This document shows, one piece after another, positions 51,501 through 57,500 of a stretch of 64,000 bases of DNA. A program made the position numbers. Numbering within the stretch: position 1 is the first letter of the stretch; each line of letters opens with the position of its first letter. The stretch is from Escherichia coli (GTDB taxonomy: Bacteria; Pseudomonadota; Gammaproteobacteria; Enterobacterales; Enterobacteriaceae). The stretch lies in the NCBI RefSeq assembly GCF_030013205.1, contig NZ_CP122648.1; one strand, written 5' to 3'.

Positions 51501-54500
51501 ATGAACCGCATTATCGAAACGCGCAGCGATGGCCTGACGTTCCACTATAAAGCCATTGATCAGGTTCGCGCCGAAGGCCAGCAATTAGTGAATCAGGCAA
51601 TGGGCGGAATTTTACAGGACAGCATTAATGAAATGGGCGCGAAAGCGGTGCTGAAAAGCGGCGGTAACCCATTACAGAATGTGCTGGGAAGCCTGGGCGG
51701 TCTGCAATCCTCAATCCAAACCGAATGGAAAAAGCAGGAAAAAGATTTCCAGCAGTTTGGCAAAGATGTTTGTAGCCGCGTTGTGACTCTGGAAGATAGT
51801 CGCAAAGCCCTGGTCGGGAATTTAAAATAATCCTCTATTTTAAGACGGCATAATACTTTTTTATGCCGTTTAATTCTTCGTTTTGTTACCTGCCTCTAAC
51901 TTTGTAGATCTCCAAAATATATTCACGGTGTAAATTGTTTAACGTCAAATTTCCCATACAAAGCTAAGGGATAATGCGTAGCGTTCACGTAACTGGAGGA
52001 ATGAAATGGAGTTTTTCAAAAAGACGGCACTTGCCGCACTGGTTATGGGTTTTAGTGGTGCAGCATTGGCATTACCCAATATCACCATTTTAGCAACCGG
52101 CGGGACCATTGCCGGTGGTGGTGACTCCGCAACCAAATCTAACTACACAGCGGGTAAAGTTGGCGTAGAAAATCTGGTTAATGCGGTCCCGCAACTGAAG
52201 GACATTGCGAACGTTAAAGGCGAGCAGGTAGTGAATATCGGCTCCCAGGACATGAACGATAATGTCTGGCTGACACTGGCGAAAAAAATTAACACCGACT
52301 GCGATAAAACCGACGGCTTCGTCATTACTCACGGTACCGACACGATGGAAGAAACTGCTTACTTCCTCGACCTGACGGTGAAATGCGACAAACCGGTGGT
52401 GATGGTCGGCGCAATGCGCCCGTCCACGTCCATGAGCGCAGACGGTCCATTCAACCTGTATAACGCGGTAGTGACCGCAGCTGATAAAGCCTCTGCTAAT
52501 CGTGGCGTGCTGGTAGTGATGAACGACACCGTACTGGACGGTCGCGATGTCACCAAAACCAATACCACCGACGTAGCGACCTTCAAGTCTGTTAACTACG
52601 GTCCTCTGGGTTACATTCACAACGGTAAGATTGACTACCAACGTACCCCGGCACGTAAGCACACCAGCGACACGCCGTTCGATGTCTCTAAGCTGAATGA
52701 ACTGCCGAAAGTCGGCATTGTTTATAACTACGCTAACGCATCCGATCTTCCGGCTAAAGCACTGGTAGATGCGGGCTATGATGGCATCGTTAGCGCTGGT
52801 GTGGGTAACGGCAACCTGTATAAAACCGTGTTCGACACCCTGGCAACCGCCGCGAAAAACGGCACTGCAGTCGTGCGTTCTTCCCGCGTACCGACGGGCG
52901 CTACCACTCAGGATGCTGAAGTGGATGATGCGAAATACGGCTTTGTGGCCTCCGGTACACTGAACCCGCAAAAAGCGCGCGTCCTACTGCAGCTGGCTCT
53001 GACACAAACCAAAGATCCGCAGCAGATCCAGCAGATCTTCAATCAGTACTAATCACCTCGCCCCGGTATCGTGCCGGGGCTTTTTCACTTCAGACTTACG
53101 TCCATTGCCAATTTTCATTACCCTAATGATAATCACCGGAATAAATTATTCCGCGTGAGGGTTTTCGGGTGAAAAAGCAATGGATTGTTGGCACGGCGCT
53201 GCTTATGTTGATGACTGGTAATGTCTGGGCAGATGGCGAACCGCCAACTGAAAATATCTTAAAAGATCAATTCAAAAAGCAGTATCACGGCATTCTCAAG
53301 CTTGATGCTATCAGCTTAAAAAATCTTGATGCTAAGGGTAATCAGGCCACCTGGTCAGCGGAAGGCGATGTCTCTTCCAGTGACGATCTCTATACCTGGG
53401 TCGGTCAGTTGGCAGATTACGAACTGCTCGAACAGACCTGGACGAAAGATAAACCGGTAAAATTTTCGGCGATGTTAACCAGTAAAGGAACGCCCGCGTC
53501 TGGCTGGTCGGTGAACTTTTACTCTTTTCAGGCGGCAGCCAGCGATCGTGGGCGGGTGGTCGACGATATCAAAACGAATAATAAATATCTGATCGTGAAT
53601 AGCGAAGATTTCAATTATCGCTTTAGTCAGCTTGAATCAGCGTTGAATACCCAGAAGAACTCGATTCCTGCGCTGGAAAAGGAAGTGAAAGCGCTTGATA
53701 AGCAAATGGTGGCGGCGCAGAAAGCAGCGGATGCATATTGGGGAAAAGATGCAAACGGTAAGCAAATGACCCGCGAAGACGCCTTTAAAAAAATTCACCA
53801 ACAGCGTGATGAGTTTAATAAACAGAACGATAGCGAGGCTTTCGCGGTTAAATATGACAAAGAGGTTTATCAACCGGCGATTGCGGCATGTCATAAACAG
53901 AGTGAAGAGTGTTATGAAGTGCCGATTCAGCAGAAGCGAGATTTCGATATCAACGAACAACGGCGACAGACTTTTCTGCAATCACAAAAACTTAGCCGTA
54001 AATTGCAGGATGACTGGATAACGCTCGAAAAAGGGCAATATCCGTTAACGATGAAAGTTTCAGAAATAAACAGTAAAAAAGTCGCTATTTTGATGAAAAT
54101 TGATGATATCAACCAGGCTAATGAACGCTGGAAAAAAGATACCGAACAATTGCGGCGCAATGGAGTGATTAAGTAACTCATGTTAAGTACCTTTGCCGGA
54201 TAATATAAAAAGTTATCCGGCAAATTATTTTTTACATTAGCCCTAGTAGCTGTGGAATGAACAAGGATATTTGCGGGATGTAAGTGATCATCATCAACGC
54301 GATTAACAATGCGGCATAAAATGGCAGCAATGGTTTGATCAAATGTTGAATCTTCACACCTGAAATAGAACAACCAACAAATAGCGCACTACCCACCGGC
54401 GGTGTTAACAGCCCAATACAAAGGTTAGCCACCATCATAATACCGAAATGTACCGGATCCATTCCCAGCTCTTGTGCAATCGGCAAGAAGATTGGTGTGA

Positions 54501-57500
54501 AGATTAGTACAGCCGGTGTCATGTCCATAAAGATGCCGACAATTAATAAGACGATATTAATCAGCAGCAATATGATCAGTGGGTTATCAGAAATCCCCAT
54601 CAATGCGTCGCTGATCATATAAGGAATATCAGCATTGGTCATTGCCCAGGACATGCCCACGGAAAAACCGATCAACAGTAATACAATCGAAGTGGTAACA
54701 ACCGATTCCAGAATCAGTTTGGGTAAATCGCGCCATTTTACTTCCCGGTAAATCAGCACCGAGAGAATAAATGTGTAGACAACGGCAATTGCTGACGCTT
54801 CAGTTGCGGTAAAAATGCCGCCCAGAATGCCGCCCATTACAATGAACACCAGAAGCAAACTTGGTAAGGCATCCAGAAAAGCTTTACATGCCTGAGCAAA
54901 GGTTGCTCTTTCTGAAAGTGGGTAGCCACGGCGTTTAGCAATAATGCCGCAGACTATCATTACCGCGAGACCCATTAAGATCCCTGGCAAATATCCCGCC
55001 ATAAATAACGATGCTACAGAAACGCCGCCAGCTGTCAGGGAAAACACAATTAACACGTTTGAGGGCGGTATCAGTAATCCAGTAATACAAGATGAGACGT
55101 TTACAGCGGTAGAAAATGCCGGATCATAACCTTCTTTGGTCTGAATGGGATTCAGTGTGCCACCAACGGCAGCAGCTGCCGCAACGGCTGAACCAGAAAT
55201 GGAACCAAACATCATATTCGCCAGGACGTTCACATGACCAAGCGAACCAGGAACGCGGCCAACCATTACCTGGGCGAGGTTAATCAAACGTATCGCAATA
55301 CCGCCGCTGTTCATCAGCGTTCCGGCAAAGATGAAAAAGGGGATTGCCAATAGGGCAAAGTTATCCAGTCCATTAGCCAGTCGCTGCGAAACAGTGATTG
55401 CCGCGATATCCCAGGGAAACATCAACAGCATTGAAGCTACAGTGGCAATACCGATTGAGAACGAAATGGGCACACCAATAAAGACCAGCACAAAAAAACA
55501 GCCAAACAGTGTAAGCGCGATATAACTATCCATTAACTGGCCTCCTGCGCAGGTTGTTTCAGTTGTTGAATGCTTTGATTAATAAAACACAAGGCATAAA
55601 ACATCATCACCAATCCACTTAATGGCAGAATGATATATACGTATCCCATCGGTATTTGCATCGCGGCAGATACCTGTGATGTTGCCAGTGTTTTATCAAT
55701 TAATTTCAGGCCACCAGTCACAATGACCGAACCGGCAAAACCTAAAATAAGAACGTTAATGACTATACTAAGAAGTAATTGCTTGCGCTTATTCAGGGCG
55801 AGAGCAAATAAATCGATAGAGAGATGTCTCTGCGCGCCGACGGTATATGCAGCACCTAATAATCCTACCCAGATCATCAAAAAGCGTGCCAGTTCATCGG
55901 TTAATGTACTTGGCTGGTTAAGTACGTAGCGGCTAAATACTTGCCAGACTACGCATACAACCAGAGCAAGCATTACGGCGACAGAAAACGCGGCAATGAC
56001 GCGGTCTACCGCAAGTTTCAGGCGGTTAAATATCATTGTAAGCATCCTGGAAAATCAGGGCCAGAGACTGGCCCGAAATATTATTGAGCAGCGTTGTCGA
56101 ATTTCTCTAACAAAGCAGCTTGTTTTGGATCTTTTTTGAAGTCGTCAAACAGAGGTTGAACTGCGGCACGGAATGGGGCTTTATCAACCTTAACGATTTC
56201 ACCACCCATAGCTTTCGCCTGAGCACGTGTGTCAGCGTCAATTTTTTCCCACAATTTTTGTTGATAAGCTTCGGATTTCTTCGCCGCTGTTTCGAGGATT
56301 TGTTGCTGTTCTGGGGTTAATTTATTCCATGTTTTAGTGGAGATAACCAAAAAGTCAGGAATTGAGGCATGTTCATCTTCAGAAAAGACTTTGGCAATTT
56401 CGATATGTCGAGTCTGCACCCAGGAAGGCACGTTATTTTCTGCGCCATCTACTACACCTTGTTGCATCGCAGTATAAACTTCGCCAAATGAAATTGGAGT
56501 GGGTGAGCCACCCATCAGTTCAATCATTTTGATGGTGGTCGGGCTTGGCTGAACACGAATTTTCAGCCCTTTAAGATCTTCTGGCTTAGTAATCGGTTTT
56601 TTCGCATAGAAACTGCGAGTACCCGCTACATAAGCTGATAAAGCAAAAAAGCCTTTATCTTTTGTTGAATCCATAATTTCTTTACCAACTTCACCAAAAA
56701 CCACTTTGTTGAAGTGCGCCTGATCTTTAAATAAGAACGGCAAATTATAGATAGCATAAATATTATCAAAAGACTCCAGATCACTGGCGGAACCTTTGGT
56801 CATATCCAGTGCACCATTTTGCAACAACTCCATAGTTTCTCGCGCATTACCCATCTGGCTGCTGGGGTAAATACGGATCACCATATTACCTTTTGACAGC
56901 TGTTTTACTTCTTTCGCCAGCTCTTCAAAACTCTGATGTACAACATGACTTCTTTCCAGGTTGTGTGCTAACTTTAACGTCACTTTTTCTGCGGCGTTTA
57001 CGCCAGTGCTAACCAGAGCCAGCAAGGATGCGCAGACTAATGAGCGGGTAAATGACCTCATTTTCATAAAAAAACTCCCTGTTGAAGAATGGAAATTGGT
57101 TGATATCTAATTGTGCTTATCAGTGCTTTGTGCGACAAATTGGTTAACCTGTCTGACAACTTGTCTATGTTTATCACAACTTGAAATAAAGTCAGAAATT
57201 AAATATTAATTTTGTGCGCCAGGTTGTACATGTTTATAATCAATAAATGATGAGTAAATATTCACTAAATATATATAATAAATATCGTCGATATTTATTC
57301 AGTAAGAAATATATTTTTGCCGAAGTTAATTAACGGGGGGGTAAAAGAAGTGATTAATGCGCCCGCAGGCGCATTAATGATTACTCAGCGAGGAATAATT
57401 CAAGAAGTGAGTTTAAGAATAATTTACCATGCTCGGTTATCTGCCAGTAATCCGCACATTTTGTGAGATAACCCTGAGCGATAGCCTCGTCTAACTGTGG

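What the first reader, a model, noticed from the sequence alone, without database searches (positions are those of the whole stretch)
54232..57380. TRAP transporter operon between yggM and hemW
A dctP-dctQ-dctM operon of unknown substrate, with an AT-rich upstream region and no adjacent regulator, interrupts a stretch that, as far as I recall, is contiguous in laboratory E. coli K-12. It is therefore probably a strain-variable metabolic insertion in the core backbone.
Basis: partly seen in the sequence, partly recalled or inferred. Interest (0 to 1): 0.45.

Follow-up and report, generated by a model that had tools for sequence, protein, structure and literature searches.

The report
Ancestral hexuronate-type TRAP transporter, lost in K-12
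This is an intact three-gene TRAP uptake system, most likely for the sugar acids glucuronate and galacturonate; about a quarter of E. coli strains keep it at an ancestral position and K-12 has lost it, so it is an ordinary strain-variable nutrient transporter, not a foreign insertion.

Summary
Window 54232-57067 (minus strand) encodes an intact dctP-dctQ-dctM TRAP transporter between yggM and hemW. It has a 313-bp upstream region of 31% GC and no adjacent regulator. K-12 lacks the operon.

The "insertion" reading does not hold. The same operon lies directly downstream of hemW in Salmonella, Citrobacter, Klebsiella, Kluyvera, Pseudocitrobacter, Pluralibacter and Phytobacter. Its nucleotide divergence from those genera (70-82%) is close to, mostly slightly below, that of the flanking core genes (77-89%). 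Its GC rises with host GC. It has no mobility genes and no meaningful flanking repeats.

In E. coli it is a presence/absence polymorphism: 1460-1476 of 5426 complete genomes carry it. Genomes without it have only REP-type repeats in the yggM-hemW spacer. Loss is the better explanation.

The substrate is probably D-galacturonate and/or D-glucuronate. The 14 best solved homologues are hexuronate binders where I could confirm a ligand from a paper or recall one. Relatives 60% identical in Aeromonas and Pantoea occupy the exuT slot between uxaCBA and exuR. The carboxylate-binding Arg is present.

The promoter carries conserved GntR/FadR-type boxes resembling K-12 ExuR/UxuR operators. Control in trans by those core repressors would explain the missing local regulator.

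This is an uncharacterised member of a known kind, of low to moderate interest.

The parts
56081..57067 (-). dctP: periplasmic substrate-binding protein (328 aa). It has a Sec-type signal peptide (MKMRSFTRSLVCASLLALVSTGVNA/AEK) and is predicted to bind a hexuronate.
   Evidence: Pfam DctP E = 2e-84. TIGR00787 scores 285.7 bits against a cut-off of 175. Best PDB matches are 4ovr, 4n15/4n17, 4mhf/4mij, 4x8r, 4n91, 4n8y and 4xfe. R151, R171 and N211 lie in the conserved RSFYA / KIRVQ / AENN motifs. All 25 nucleotide differences from the O111:H8 allele are synonymous.
55533..56045 (-). dctQ: small membrane subunit (170 aa from the first ATG; RefSeq start gives 167 aa, 55533-56036).
   Evidence: Pfam DctQ E = 3.5e-30. 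RefSeq annotation in identical strains. Its stop overlaps the dctM start at 55533.
54232..55533 (-). dctM: large membrane (translocation) subunit, 433 aa.
   Evidence: Pfam DctM E = 2.3e-121 over 413/413 profile positions. TIGR00786 scores 472.9 bits against a cut-off of 268.
56058..56074 (-). GC-rich hairpin immediately after the dctP stop codon, followed by a weak U-rich tail. It is probably an mRNA-stabilising or partial-termination element that gives more binding protein than membrane subunits.
   Evidence: Terminator-like site found. A stem-loop occurs at the same place in Citrobacter, Kluyvera, Klebsiella, Salmonella, Buttiauxella, Edwardsiella and Aeromonas with different stem sequences. 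Individual z-scores are weak (-0.3 to -2.1). The function is inferred.
57068..57352 (-). AT-rich promoter and operator region of the operon (31% GC).
   Evidence: Composition. Conserved blocks across 15 genera or species in alignment A1. The upstream 300 bp is 32-38% GC in the nine enterobacterial species measured, whatever the host GC; the Aeromonas relative is 46%.
57146..57161 (-). Box 3: AGTTGTCAGACAGGTT, a near-palindromic GntR/FadR-type operator and candidate ExuR site.
   Evidence: Core TGTCnGACA is invariant or nearly so in A1. It always lies 21 bp from box 4 in other genera. It scores 15.0 bits with a PWM built only from non-E. coli TRAP promoters. That PWM's top K-12 hits are the candidate operator I picked in the exuT promoter, a site upstream of uxaB and a site in the uxaC 5' region. 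Background is 5 hits of at least 15 bits in 1.4 M positions.
57137..57154 (-). AGACAGGTTAACCAATTT: a site of the canonical UxuR/ExuR type, overlapping box 3. It contains the 13-mer GGTTAACCAATTT.
   Evidence: Scores 11.4-11.7 bits with a PWM built from 8 sites that I picked by eye in K-12 hexuronate promoters (consensus AAATTGGTATACCAATTT); fourth best in the 64-kb window. The exact 13-mer occurs once in the window, with 0.08 expected at up to one mismatch. Otherwise it occurs only in the K-12 gntP-uxuA spacer, which is the region UxuR binds in genomic SELEX (PMC5934670).
57125..57140 (-). Box 4 position: ATTTGTCGCACAAAGC. This is a degenerate E. coli version of the conserved ATGTCATACAG box.
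   Evidence: Aligned with box 4 in A1. It scores only 3.4 bits with the TRAP-box PWM, so it has diverged in the E. coli lineage.
57163..57180 (-). Conserved TGTGA half-site (GTTGTGATAAACATAGAC), a possible CRP site.
   Evidence: TGTGA is invariant or nearly so in A1. In other genera I placed it by hand about 41 bp upstream of a start site inferred from a GATAAT -10 hexamer. The right half matches CRP poorly. Low confidence.
57093..57109 (-). Conserved block AGATATnnACCAA (TAGATATCAACCAATTT). Role unknown; possibly a third half-operator.
   Evidence: Conserved in A1. Coordinates.
57208..57225 (-). Distal conserved block CAGCGCACAAAA (AACCTGGCGCACAAAATT in E. coli). Role unknown.
   Evidence: Strongly conserved in A1. 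It scores 11.7-11.8 bits with the canonical UxuR/ExuR PWM in E. coli only.
54192..54224 (+). Hairpin TTTGCCGGATAA-N9-TTATCCGGCAAA plus a T-run between the convergent yggM and dctM genes. It is the terminator for yggM and probably the end of the TRAP transcript.
   Evidence: I6, 12-bp perfect arms.
57353..57378 (-). hemW terminator hairpin (ATTAATGCGCCTGCGGGCGCATTAAT). It insulates the TRAP promoter from hemW read-through.
   Evidence: I2. The core AATGCGCCTGCGGGCGCATT is also present after hemW in TRAP-carrying Salmonella.
57381..57560 (-). The last ~180 bp of hemW form a highly diverged haplotype linked to presence of the operon. The last 20 encoded residues are unchanged.
   Evidence: 82% identity to K-12 in the last 180 bp against 96.8% in the preceding 900 bp. 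The last 60 bp are 73% identical with the same amino-acid sequence. Three E. coli TRAP alleles share this haplotype.

Best explanation
The segment is a complete, selectively maintained DctP-type TRAP transporter operon, dctP-dctQ-dctM.

How it works (inferred from the family):
- DctP is exported to the periplasm.
- It captures a hexuronate, D-galacturonate and/or D-glucuronate, through a salt bridge from the conserved Arg171 to the carboxylate, with help from Arg151 and Asn211.
- It closes around the ligand and hands it to the DctQM membrane unit.
- DctQM imports the ligand using an ion gradient, without ATP.
- The sugar acid then enters the core hexuronate pathway (UxaC, UxaB/UxaA or UxuB/UxuA, KdgK, Eda) that every E. 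coli has.
- The system would act as a high-affinity scavenger alongside the MFS carrier ExuT.

Regulation (inferred from sequence):
- Transcription starts in the conserved AT-rich region upstream of dctP.
- It is probably repressed in trans by the core-genome GntR/FadR-type hexuronate repressors ExuR and/or UxuR, acting at conserved boxes.
- It may also be CRP-dependent.
- This would explain why no regulator is encoded next to it.
- A conserved hairpin after dctP probably raises the ratio of binding protein to membrane subunits.

Evolution: the operon is ancestral at this position in Enterobacteriaceae. In E. coli it is a long-standing presence/absence polymorphism (27% of genomes). K-12 and most lineages have lost it and have REP repeats in its place.

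Shown: gene content, intactness, synteny, distribution and purifying selection. Inferred: substrate, regulator, energy coupling and hairpin function.
For: **Identity and intactness.** Pfam and NCBIfam matches are far above their cut-offs. All three ORFs are intact, with a stop/start overlap between dctQ and dctM. Against the O111:H8 allele, dctP has 25 differences and all are synonymous. Against Salmonella, 142 codons changed synonymously and 32 non-synonymously.

**Substrate.**
- The 14 best PDB sequence matches (E = 4e-68 to 6e-50) are the EFI structural-genomics TRAP binding proteins 4ovr, 4n15/4n17, 4ln5, 4mhf/4mij, 4x8r, 4n91, 4n8y, 4xfe, 4pf8, 4ng7/4x04, 4ovq and 4p1l. Foldseek gives the same set.
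- Papers confirm some ligands. 4N91 binds D-glucuronate and the 4MHF protein binds D-glucuronate and D-galacturonate (PMC7660916). 4N8Y has galacturonate bound and 4X8R has glucuronate bound (PMC11668362). The other ligands rest on my memory of the PDB titles.
- R151, R171 and N211 correspond to the Arg150/Arg170/Asn210 triad that is conserved in glucuronate binders.
- In Aeromonas rivuli, A. molluscorum and Pantoea sp. IMH, the 60%-identical operon lies between a divergent uxaC-uxaB-uxaA-ygjV cluster and exuR. That is the slot ExuT occupies in E. coli. Most of the candidate binding-site residues I could check (H35, N36, L37, R76, E77, R151, R171, N211, D238) are invariant across this whole group; A75 is conserved in most members only.

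**Regulation.**
- Two boxes, AGnTGTCnGACAAC and ATGTCATACAG, sit at a fixed 21-bp spacing in nearly all close (81-94% identical) orthologous promoters examined, including those not linked to hemW; in E. coli the second box is degenerate.
- A PWM built from them without E. coli data picks, in 34 kb of K-12 DNA, a site upstream of uxaB (20.1 bits), a site in the uxaC 5' region (16.0) and the candidate site in the exuT promoter (15.7). About 0.24 hits are expected from a background of 5 in 1.4 M positions.
- The E. coli promoter also shares the exact 13-mer GGTTAACCAATTT with the uxuA promoter.

**Ancestry.** The operon lies directly after hemW in Citrobacter (5 species), Kluyvera, Klebsiella (6 species), Pseudocitrobacter, Pluralibacter, Phytobacter and Salmonella. 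Nucleotide identity of dctPQM is 70-82%, against 77-89% for the flanking genes. Operon GC is 44% in E. coli, 47-49% in Citrobacter, 52-54% in Klebsiella, Kluyvera and Pluralibacter, 57% in Edwardsiella and 59% in Aeromonas. There are no mobility features.

**Distribution.** 1460-1476 of 5426 complete genomes carry it, in allele classes of >=99%, 95-99% and 90-95% identity. Roughly 3900 genomes have an empty site, with REP spacers of several lengths.
Against: **Substrate.**
- No binding or transport data exist for this orthologue group in the literature I could search.
- Two of the seven residues named as glucuronate contacts in STM3169 and Apre_1383 appear to differ here: Gln36 becomes Leu37 and Glu74 becomes Ala75. 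This was inferred from numbering and from alignment to 4ovr, 4n15 and 4mhf. The exact sugar acid, and the preference between glucuronate and galacturonate, is therefore open.
- The AlphaFold model is only moderate (pLDDT 74.5) and poor across residues 150-234, which include the ligand residues. No structural check of the pocket was possible.

**Regulation.**
- The K-12 "known" operators were sites I picked by eye from promoter sequences, not taken from a curated list.
- The canonical palindromic UxuR/ExuR PWM scores poorly on most non-E. coli orthologous promoters, mostly below the 90th percentile of background.
- The E. coli box 4 is degenerate.
- No sigma-70 consensus promoter was found upstream of dctP by the scan.

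**Ancestry.**
- The representative genomes of other named Escherichia species, and Salmonella LT2, were not returned by the locus scan.
- The strongly diverged hemW 3' tract could mark an import by homologous recombination.
Confidence: 0.62

Rival explanations
1. One reading: the operon is a horizontally acquired metabolic islet inserted between yggM and hemW in some E. coli lineages. A softer form is that it was re-introduced into an Escherichia ancestor that lacked it, by homologous recombination through the flanking core genes.
For: - It is absent from K-12, O157:H7, Nissle 1917, E2348/69 and about 72% of complete genomes.
- Operon GC is 44%, against 52% for hemW.
- The last 180 bp of hemW are 18% diverged from K-12, against 3% for the rest, as expected at the edge of an imported tract.
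- Representative genomes of other named Escherichia species were not found to carry it.
Against: - The position is identical in at least eight genera, and Salmonella has the full hemW-dctPQM-yggM-ansB order.
- Divergence from every sampled genus (70-82% nucleotide identity) is about that of the flanking genes. No donor stands out.
- GC rises with host GC.
- The promoter boxes, the hemW terminator and the post-dctP hairpin are conserved along with it.
- There are no integrase, IS, tRNA or real direct repeats.
- Alleles within E. coli differ by up to 6%, almost all synonymous, which indicates long residence.
Confidence: 0.15
2. The transporter takes up a different organic acid. Candidates are C4-dicarboxylates (as the DctP name suggests), 2,3-diketo-L-gulonate like YiaMNO, an aldonic acid (gluconate, galactonate, mannonate), fructuronate/tagaturonate, or an unsaturated uronate from polysaccharide lyases.
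For: - Two predicted ligand-contact positions differ from the glucuronate-specific set, Leu37 for Gln and Ala75 for Glu.
- In most genera no catabolic gene is adjacent.
- In Mangrovibacter the divergent neighbour is a heparinase II/III- and alginate-lyase-like protein. In Enterobacillus a GPH-family MFS carrier and a GH31 hydrolase lie upstream.
- STM3169 showed a thermal shift with D-galactonate, although no binding was seen by other methods.
Against: - The YiaM and YiaN equivalog models score far below their cut-offs: 38 against 260 bits, and 297 against 800 bits.
- C4-dicarboxylate DctP structures (9dsy, 9dtl, 9ht3) match much more weakly, at E = 1e-31 to 1e-33, than the hexuronate binders at E = 1e-60 to 1e-68.
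- The exuT-slot context with uxaCBA and exuR in Aeromonas and Pantoea points specifically to hexuronates.
Confidence: 0.2
3. The conserved promoter boxes are bound by a regulator other than ExuR or UxuR. This could be another FadR-subfamily GntR protein such as LgoR, DgoR or an unassigned paralogue. Alternatively they could be core promoter elements rather than operators.
For: - The canonical palindromic UxuR/ExuR matrix scores weakly on most orthologous promoters.
- The boxes have an odd-centred TGTC-N-GACA core, unlike the even-centred TGGT-NN-ACCA core.
- FadR-subfamily motifs are similar to each other (general knowledge).
- My K-12 operator set was chosen by eye.
Against: - The matrix derived from the TRAP boxes picks three sites that are all next to ExuR-regulon genes (exuT, uxaC, uxaB), with about 0.24 expected.
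- Similar boxes (AGATGTAGGACA, AGATGTTATACC, AGTTGTTGGACC) fill the uxaC-dctP intergenic region next to exuR in Aeromonas and Pantoea.
- An exact 13-mer is shared with the UxuR-bound uxuA promoter (PMC5934670).
Confidence: 0.3

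Closest known systems
Hexuronate-binding TRAP binding proteins solved by the Enzyme Function Initiative: Bpro_3107 (4MHF/4MIJ), Bamb_6123 (4N15/4N17), Xanthobacter autotrophicus (4OVR), Apre_1383 (4N91), BBta_0128 (4N8Y), Rsph17029_2138 (4X8R)
   Same: - They are the best sequence matches (E = 4e-68 to 1e-59) and the best fold matches.
- The RSFYA, KIRVQ and AENN motifs carrying the Arg/Arg/Asn triad are conserved.
- The His-Asn pair at the end of strand 1 is shared with Bpro_3107.
- The expected mode of action is the same: periplasmic capture of a uronic acid through an Arg-carboxylate salt bridge.
   Different: - They come from Alpha- and Betaproteobacteria and Firmicutes and are not orthologues; Foldseek alignments give 34-38% identity.
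- The GSEK(D/E)T loop is GNARET here, so Glu becomes Ala75.
- The Pro-Glu motif is Pro-Asp238.
- No ligand data exist for this protein.
Salmonella Typhimurium STM3169-STM3171, a D-glucuronate TRAP transporter (Herman et al. 2020, PMC7660916)
   Same: - It is an enterobacterial three-gene TRAP operon with no adjacent catabolic or regulatory genes.
- Its binding protein was modelled on the same template family (4N15).
- The Arg150/Arg170/Asn210/Asp237 pattern has the same spacing as R151/R171/N211/D238 here.
- It is proposed as a high-affinity partner (Kd 0.17-0.25 uM) to an ExuT-like MFS carrier, which is the role I propose here.
   Different: - It is probably a paralogue and not the same locus. 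From my knowledge of LT2 gene numbering, STM3169 lies about 60 genes away from ansB/yggM.
- The S. enterica representative genome gave no close hit in the scan.
- The Salmonella strains that do carry this operon have it at hemW-yggM.
- Gln36 and Glu74 of STM3169 appear to be Leu37 and Ala75 here.
- I could not obtain the STM3169 sequence, so the identity between the two was not measured.
E. coli ExuT, the MFS hexuronate:H+ symporter, and its ExuR-controlled locus
   Same: - The predicted substrates are the same.
- Relatives 60% identical to this TRAP operon replace exuT between uxaC and exuR in Aeromonas and Pantoea.
- The operator-like boxes are similar.
   Different: - The protein family and mechanism are unrelated. 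ExuT is a single-component carrier; this is a secondary transporter that depends on a binding protein.
- ExuT is core in E. coli, whereas this operon is variable.
E. coli YiaMNO, the 2,3-diketo-L-gulonate TRAP transporter and, to my knowledge, the only TRAP system in K-12
   Same: The three-subunit DctPQM architecture is the same, and the substrate is also a sugar acid.
   Different: - The equivalog models are far from met: YiaM 38 against 260 bits, and YiaN 297 against 800 bits.
- It is a different locus, embedded in the yiaK-S catabolic operon.

Membership tests
DctP-type TRAP transporter (TC 2.A.56) | Periplasmic binding protein of the DctP family (Pfam PF03480, TIGR00787) | tested here: met
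   PF03480 E = 2e-84 over 285/286 profile positions. TIGR00787 scores 285.7 bits against a cut-off of 175.
DctP-type TRAP transporter (TC 2.A.56) | Small (DctQ) and large (DctM) membrane subunits encoded alongside the binding protein | tested here: met
   PF04290 E = 3.5e-30 and PF06808 E = 2.3e-121. TIGR00786 scores 472.9 bits against a cut-off of 268. The genes are contiguous and the dctQ stop overlaps the dctM start.
DctP-type TRAP transporter (TC 2.A.56) | Conserved arginine that pairs with the substrate carboxylate | tested here: met
   R171 in KIRVQ aligns with the same motif in 4ovr, 4n15 and 4mhf. It matches Arg170 of STM3169 and is invariant in 16 orthologues.
DctP-type TRAP transporter (TC 2.A.56) | Binding-protein-dependent, ATP-independent, ion-gradient-driven uptake | not testable with these tools
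   This needs transport assays.
Hexuronate-binding clade of TRAP binding proteins | Closest characterised relatives bind D-glucuronate and/or D-galacturonate | tested here: met
   The top 14 PDB matches belong to this group. Ligands are confirmed from papers for 4N91, 4MHF, 4N8Y and 4X8R. The others rest on my memory of the PDB titles.
Hexuronate-binding clade of TRAP binding proteins | The Arg150/Arg170/Asn210 triad (STM3169 numbering) conserved in glucuronate binders | tested here: met
   R151, R171 and N211 are present and invariant in the orthologue group.
Hexuronate-binding clade of TRAP binding proteins | The glucuronate-specific contact set Asn35, Gln36, Glu74 and Asp237, shared by STM3169 and Apre_1383 | tested here: not met
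   N36 and D238 are present, but the positions matching Gln36 and Glu74 are Leu37 and Ala75. This follows from numbering and from alignment to homologues that have GSEK where this protein has GNAR. I therefore do not file it as a glucuronate-specific binder. A hexuronate preference is still the best guess.
Hexuronate-binding clade of TRAP binding proteins | Genomic linkage to hexuronate catabolic genes in at least some members | tested here: met
   uxaC-uxaB-uxaA-ygjV and exuR flank the 60%-identical operon in two Aeromonas species and Pantoea sp. IMH. There is no such linkage in E. coli itself.
Hexuronate-binding clade of TRAP binding proteins | Measured binding of a hexuronate | not testable with these tools
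   This needs purified protein. No published data were found in six literature searches.
ExuR/UxuR regulon | Operator matching the regulators' binding motif in the promoter | tested here: inconclusive
   For: box 3 scores 15 bits with an independent PWM that recovers sites at exuT, uxaC and uxaB, and there is an exact 13-mer match to the uxuA promoter. Against: the canonical palindromic PWM is weak on most orthologous promoters, and the K-12 training sites were picked by eye.
ExuR/UxuR regulon | Derepression by hexuronates or by loss of exuR/uxuR | not testable with these tools
   This needs expression experiments in a strain that carries the operon. K-12 data sets cannot include it.
Genomic island or horizontally inserted islet | Mobility signatures: integrase, transposase, tRNA target, flanking direct repeats | tested here: not met
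   No such ORFs between yggM and hemW. Only short repeats at chance level. The only tRNA in the window is pheV at 42249-42324.
Genomic island or horizontally inserted islet | Phylogenetic and compositional discordance with the flanking core genes | tested here: not met
   Nucleotide identity to other genera is close to, mostly slightly below, that of the flanks. GC rises with host GC, though it stays a few points below the flanks. Synteny is conserved in at least eight genera.
YiaMNO 2,3-diketo-L-gulonate transporter | Scores above the NCBIfam equivalog cut-offs for YiaM and YiaN | tested here: not met
   38.1 against 260 bits, and 296.6 against 800 bits.

The most novel reading that the evidence does not exclude
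The hemW-linked TRAP operon may be an ancient presence/absence polymorphism, possibly under balancing selection, kept in both Escherichia and Salmonella. It would encode a high-affinity hexuronate scavenger wired into the core ExuR/UxuR circuit. In the E. coli lineage the promoter would have been rewired: the conserved second operator is lost and a uxuA-type UxuR box gained. Carriage in, for example, ST131 and O111:H8 STEC, but not in K-12, O157:H7 or Nissle, would then change how strains compete for gut or urinary glucuronate and galacturonate.
Probability: 0.25. Interest if true: 0.45.

Novelty: new member of a known kind. Interest (0 to 1): 0.27.

Why it matters
Hexuronates from mucus, glucuronides and dietary pectin are recognised gut carbon sources for E. 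coli. The paralogous Salmonella glucuronate TRAP system STM3169 has been linked to survival in macrophages (PMC7660916).

If this operon is a sub-micromolar hexuronate scavenger, about a quarter of E. coli strains have an uptake capacity that K-12-based models lack. Those strains include major clinical lineages such as ST131 (JJ1887) and O111:H8.

The finding also shows that "absent from K-12" need not mean "inserted": here K-12 is the derived state. Beyond that it is an ordinary transporter that RefSeq already annotates generically.

Tried and rejected
- **My first regulatory lead** was that GGTTAACCAATTT marks a canonical UxuR/ExuR palindrome conserved across genera. The canonical PWM scores poorly outside E. 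coli. The truly conserved elements are the TGTCnGACA and TGTCATACA boxes. The 13-mer is kept only as an E. coli-specific feature.
- **Ligand names from structure search.** I tried to read them from PDB titles through structure prediction and Foldseek. The titles are truncated before the ligand, and the model is only moderate (pLDDT 74.5).
- **Papers not held.** Vetting et al. 2015 and Suvorova et al. 2011 are not in the library. Several ligand assignments and the published ExuR and UxuR motifs therefore rest on my memory or on secondary citations.
- **Other features in the region.** Rfam finds no RNA family. There is no credible small ORF in the upstream region. No sigma-70 consensus promoter lies upstream of dctP on its strand.
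- **Flanking repeat.** The 9-nt repeat AGTGATTAA at 54164 and 57349 (D6) was rejected as a deletion or insertion scar. Such repeats are expected by chance, and a deletion between them would not reproduce the K-12 junction.
- **Donor search.** No sampled genus stands out as a donor for the diverged hemW 3' tract.
- **Literature.** No paper on this specific E. coli operon was found.
- **STM3169.** I could not obtain its sequence for a direct comparison.

Full report
**1. Observation**

Window 54232-57067 carries three contiguous minus-strand ORFs:
- dctP, 56081-57067, 328 aa
- dctQ, 55533-56045, 170 aa (RefSeq aa)
- dctM, 54232-55533, 433 aa, whose start overlaps the dctQ stop

Pfam assigns them to DctP (E = 2e-84), DctQ (3.5e-30) and DctM (2.3e-121). 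NCBIfam TIGR00787 and TIGR00786 are well above their cut-offs.

The neighbours are yggM (DUF1202) and hemW (Radical_SAM plus HemN_C). The 313-bp region upstream of dctP is 31% GC, against 47.8% for the window. No regulator gene is adjacent.

**2. Distribution in E. coli**

The whole segment is found at 80% coverage or more in 1460 of 5426 complete E. coli genomes, always between yggM and hemW. RefSeq annotates it as generic "TRAP transporter" subunits. dctP alone is found in 1476 genomes.

Allele classes of dctP:

| Identity to the window | Genomes |
|---|---|
| >=99% | 705 |
| 95-99% | 737 |
| 90-95% | 34 |

Carriers include JJ1887 (ST131, from my own knowledge), O111:H8 strains and NCTC86.

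K-12, O157:H7, Nissle 1917 and E2348/69 lack the operon. In those strains yggM and hemW are separated by 64 bp, 154 bp or roughly 240 bp of REP-type palindromic repeats with no TRAP remnant.

**3. Insertion or loss**

A scan of one genome per species found 41 loci with binding proteins 81-100% identical. In Citrobacter amalonaticus, C. braakii, C. sedlakii and two further Citrobacter, in Kluyvera, six Klebsiella species, Pseudocitrobacter, Pluralibacter, Phytobacter and two unnamed Enterobacteriaceae, the operon lies directly downstream of hemW. The yggS-yggT-yggU-rdgB-hemW block is on one side and [yggM]/[ansB]/yggN-yggL-trmB is on the other. Some Salmonella enterica have exactly the E. coli order hemW-dctPQM-yggM-ansB-yggN-yggL-trmB.

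Further evidence for long residence:
- Nucleotide identity of E. coli dctM, dctQ and dctP to these genera is 70-82%. The flanking trmB, yggN, ansB, hemW, rdgB, yggT and yggS are mostly 77-89%. No genus stands out as a recent donor.
- Operon GC rises with the host: 44% in E. coli, 47-49% in Citrobacter, 52-54% in Klebsiella, Kluyvera and Pluralibacter, 57% in Edwardsiella and 59% in Aeromonas. It is always a little below the flanks.
- The upstream 300 bp is AT-rich (32-38% GC) in the nine enterobacterial species measured; the Aeromonas relative is 46%. This is a conserved promoter property and not an insertion scar.
- The hemW terminator hairpin is shared by TRAP-carrying E. coli and Salmonella.
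- There is no integrase, IS or tRNA, and no repeat above chance at the borders.
- dctP is under strong purifying selection. All 25 differences between the window allele and the O111:H8 allele are synonymous. There are 50 synonymous and 4 non-synonymous codon changes against the 94% allele.

I conclude that the operon is ancestral at this site and that K-12 represents a loss.

Two observations keep a recombinational re-import open at about 0.15:
- Other named Escherichia species' representative genomes, and the S. enterica representative, did not appear in the scan.
- The last ~180 bp of hemW are 18% diverged from K-12, against 3% for the rest of the gene, while the last 20 encoded residues are unchanged. 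This haplotype is shared by all three TRAP alleles examined.

**4. Substrate**

The best solved relatives of DctP are 4ovr, 4n15/4n17/4ln5, 4mhf/4mij, 4x8r, 4n91, 4n8y and 4xfe (E = 4e-68 to 2e-58). Next come 4pf8, 4ng7/4x04, 4ovq and 4p1l. Foldseek with a moderate AlphaFold model (pLDDT 74.5) returns the same set.

Ligand assignments:
- Papers in the library state that Apre_1383 (4N91) binds D-glucuronate.
- Bpro_3107 (4MHF) binds D-glucuronate and D-galacturonate, and Bamb_6123 (4N15) served as the template for modelling the glucuronate binder STM3169 (PMC7660916).
- 4N8Y holds galacturonate and 4X8R holds glucuronate (PMC11668362).
- The remaining ligand assignments are from my memory of the PDB titles.

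Sialic acid, isethionate and C4-dicarboxylate binders match far more weakly, at E = 1e-31 to 1e-40. The YiaM and YiaN equivalogs are far below their cut-offs.

The Arg150/Arg170/Asn210 triad of glucuronate binders corresponds to R151/R171/N211 here, in the RSFYA, KIRVQ and AENN motifs shared with 4ovr, 4n15 and 4mhf.

Two of the four "glucuronate-specific" contacts appear replaced: Gln36 by Leu37 and Glu74 by Ala75, so the GSEK loop reads GNAR. I therefore do not call the protein glucuronate-specific.

Independent context evidence comes from Aeromonas rivuli, A. molluscorum and Pantoea sp. IMH. There the 60%-identical operon lies between a divergent uxaC-uxaB-uxaA-ygjV cluster and exuR, the slot held by exuT in E. 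coli. Most of the candidate pocket residues I could check are invariant across this group; A75 is conserved in most members only.

Other neighbourhoods:
- In Mangrovibacter the divergent neighbour is a heparinase/alginate-lyase-like protein, with a 16.2-bit canonical UxuR/ExuR site upstream of dctP.
- In Enterobacillus a GPH-type MFS carrier and a GH31 hydrolase lie upstream.
- The Buttiauxella and Edwardsiella neighbours are uninformative.

Overall, D-galacturonate and/or D-glucuronate is the best-supported substrate, at about 0.7.

**5. Regulation**

An alignment of 15 hemW-linked promoters (A1) shows conserved blocks in this order:
- CAGCGCACAAAA
- TGTGA
- AGnTGTCnGACAAC (box 3)
- ATGTCATACAG (box 4)
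- AGATATnnACCAA
- the ribosome-binding site

Boxes 3 and 4 are always 21 bp apart, including in Buttiauxella, Edwardsiella, Mangrovibacter and Enterobacillus, where the operon is elsewhere in the genome.

A weight matrix built only from non-E. coli boxes was scanned over 34 kb of K-12 hexuronate loci and the 64-kb window. Its best K-12 hits were:

| Site | Locus position | Bits |
|---|---|---|
| Upstream of uxaB | L050 5903 | 20.1 |
| uxaC 5' region | L048 6583 | 16.0 |
| Candidate site in the exuT promoter | L048 6977 | 15.7 |

In 1.4 million other positions only 5 hits reach 15 bits, so about 0.24 are expected in the K-12 loci. E. coli box 3 (57146-57161) scores 15.0 bits.

The uxaC-dctP intergenic region next to exuR in Aeromonas and Pantoea holds similar boxes.

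The E. coli promoter differs from the other genera. Box 4 is degenerate at 3.4 bits. The spacer contains GGTTAACCAATTT (57137-57149). This exact 13-mer is otherwise found only in the K-12 gntP-uxuA spacer, the region UxuR binds in genomic SELEX (PMC5934670).

A palindromic matrix built from eight K-12 sites that I picked by eye (consensus AAATTGGTATACCAATTT) ranks two TRAP-promoter sites third and fourth in the window. It is weak on most other genera.

I infer repression in trans by ExuR and/or UxuR, at about 0.55-0.6. That would explain why no regulator is adjacent. CRP involvement through the TGTGA block is a low-confidence guess. No consensus sigma-70 promoter was detected upstream of dctP.

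**6. Other anatomy**

- A GC-rich hairpin follows the dctP stop codon (56058-56074). One occurs at the same place in every genus examined, with different stem sequences. This suggests a conserved structural element that favours binding-protein expression over the membrane subunits. The function is inferred, and individual z-scores are weak.
- A 12-bp perfect hairpin with a T-run (54192-54224) lies between the convergent yggM and dctM genes.
- No Rfam family or credible small ORF lies in the region.

**7. Comparison with known systems, and novelty**

The system is a member of the DctP-type TRAP family, and all sequence-testable criteria are met. It works like the hexuronate TRAP systems defined by the EFI structures and by Salmonella STM3169-71.

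It appears to be a distinct, syntenically different orthologue group from STM3169. From my knowledge of LT2 gene numbering STM3169 lies elsewhere, the scan found no close LT2 hit, and two pocket residues differ. I could not obtain the STM3169 sequence for a direct comparison. I found no paper on this operon.

It is a new member of a known kind, not a new kind. A specialist would not be surprised by a variable sugar-acid transporter. The mildly interesting points are that K-12 is the derived state, that the substrate and regulator can be predicted, and that the E. coli promoter has diverged. Interest: 0.27.

Noticed in passing
window 1-9000, 10485-31000 and 42249-42324: The window also holds type II secretion (gsp) genes. 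A GspL-like ORF lies at 7777-8955. There is a group-2 capsule (kps) locus with kpsS-like (22019-23209) and kpsC-like (23244-25271) ORFs, an ABC-2 exporter (10485-11321) and a large 1043-aa ORF with no Pfam match (16025-19156). tRNA-Phe (pheV) lies at 42249-42324. This looks like a typical pheV-side variable region.
   Followed up: partly
window 57381-57560 (hemW 3' end): The last ~180 bp of hemW are 18% diverged from K-12, against 3% for the rest of the gene, and the last 20 encoded residues are unchanged. The haplotype is shared by all TRAP-carrying E. coli alleles examined. It is not clearly closest to any sampled genus.
   Followed up: partly
window 57208-57225: The distal block CAGCGCACAAAA is strongly conserved about 150 bp upstream of dctP in nearly all hemW-linked promoters. 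No function could be assigned.
   Followed up: partly
L048 6583-6598 (K-12 uxaC 5' coding region) and L050 5903-5918 (upstream of uxaB, at the dgcF stop): The matrix built from TRAP promoter boxes finds very strong matches here (AGATGTCATACAGGTT and AGATGTCAGACAACTT). They may be ExuR-type operators in unusual positions in K-12.
   Followed up: no
L004, L005, L045: Metagenome-assembled genomes labelled Collinsella, Bacillota and Alicyclobacillaceae contain short contigs 99-100% identical to the E. coli hemW-dctPQM DNA. This is probably contamination or misbinning in public MAGs.
   Followed up: no
L003 4002-4373 (E. coli 50EVA, NZ_CP138412.1): A dctQ fragment 98.8% identical to the window copy is annotated as a pseudogene beside an fhuD fragment, at an unrelated locus next to MgtC/SapB and nucleoside hydrolase genes. 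A piece of the operon has been relocated in some strains. A few matches also lie on plasmids.
   Followed up: no
window 23237-23254, 9700-9717 and 19980-19995: These are other high-scoring matches to the UxuR/ExuR-type matrices, at 16.7, 15.0 and 17.7 bits. The first is at the kpsC/kpsS junction. They lie in AT-rich capsule or secretion DNA and are probably chance matches.
   Followed up: partly
L035 5529-7541 and about 7675 (Mangrovibacter yixingensis): A heparinase II/III- and alginate-lyase-like gene is divergent from the TRAP operon. A near-consensus UxuR/ExuR site (AAGTTGTTATACCTATTT, 16.2 bits) lies between them. This hints at use of uronates released by polysaccharide lyases.
   Followed up: no
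NZ_CP027591.1 (H83) and NZ_CP115376.1 (H90): A few E. coli genomes carry disrupted copies: an IS1 insertion in dctP, and a dctP truncated to 60%. This suggests ongoing decay in some lineages.
   Followed up: no
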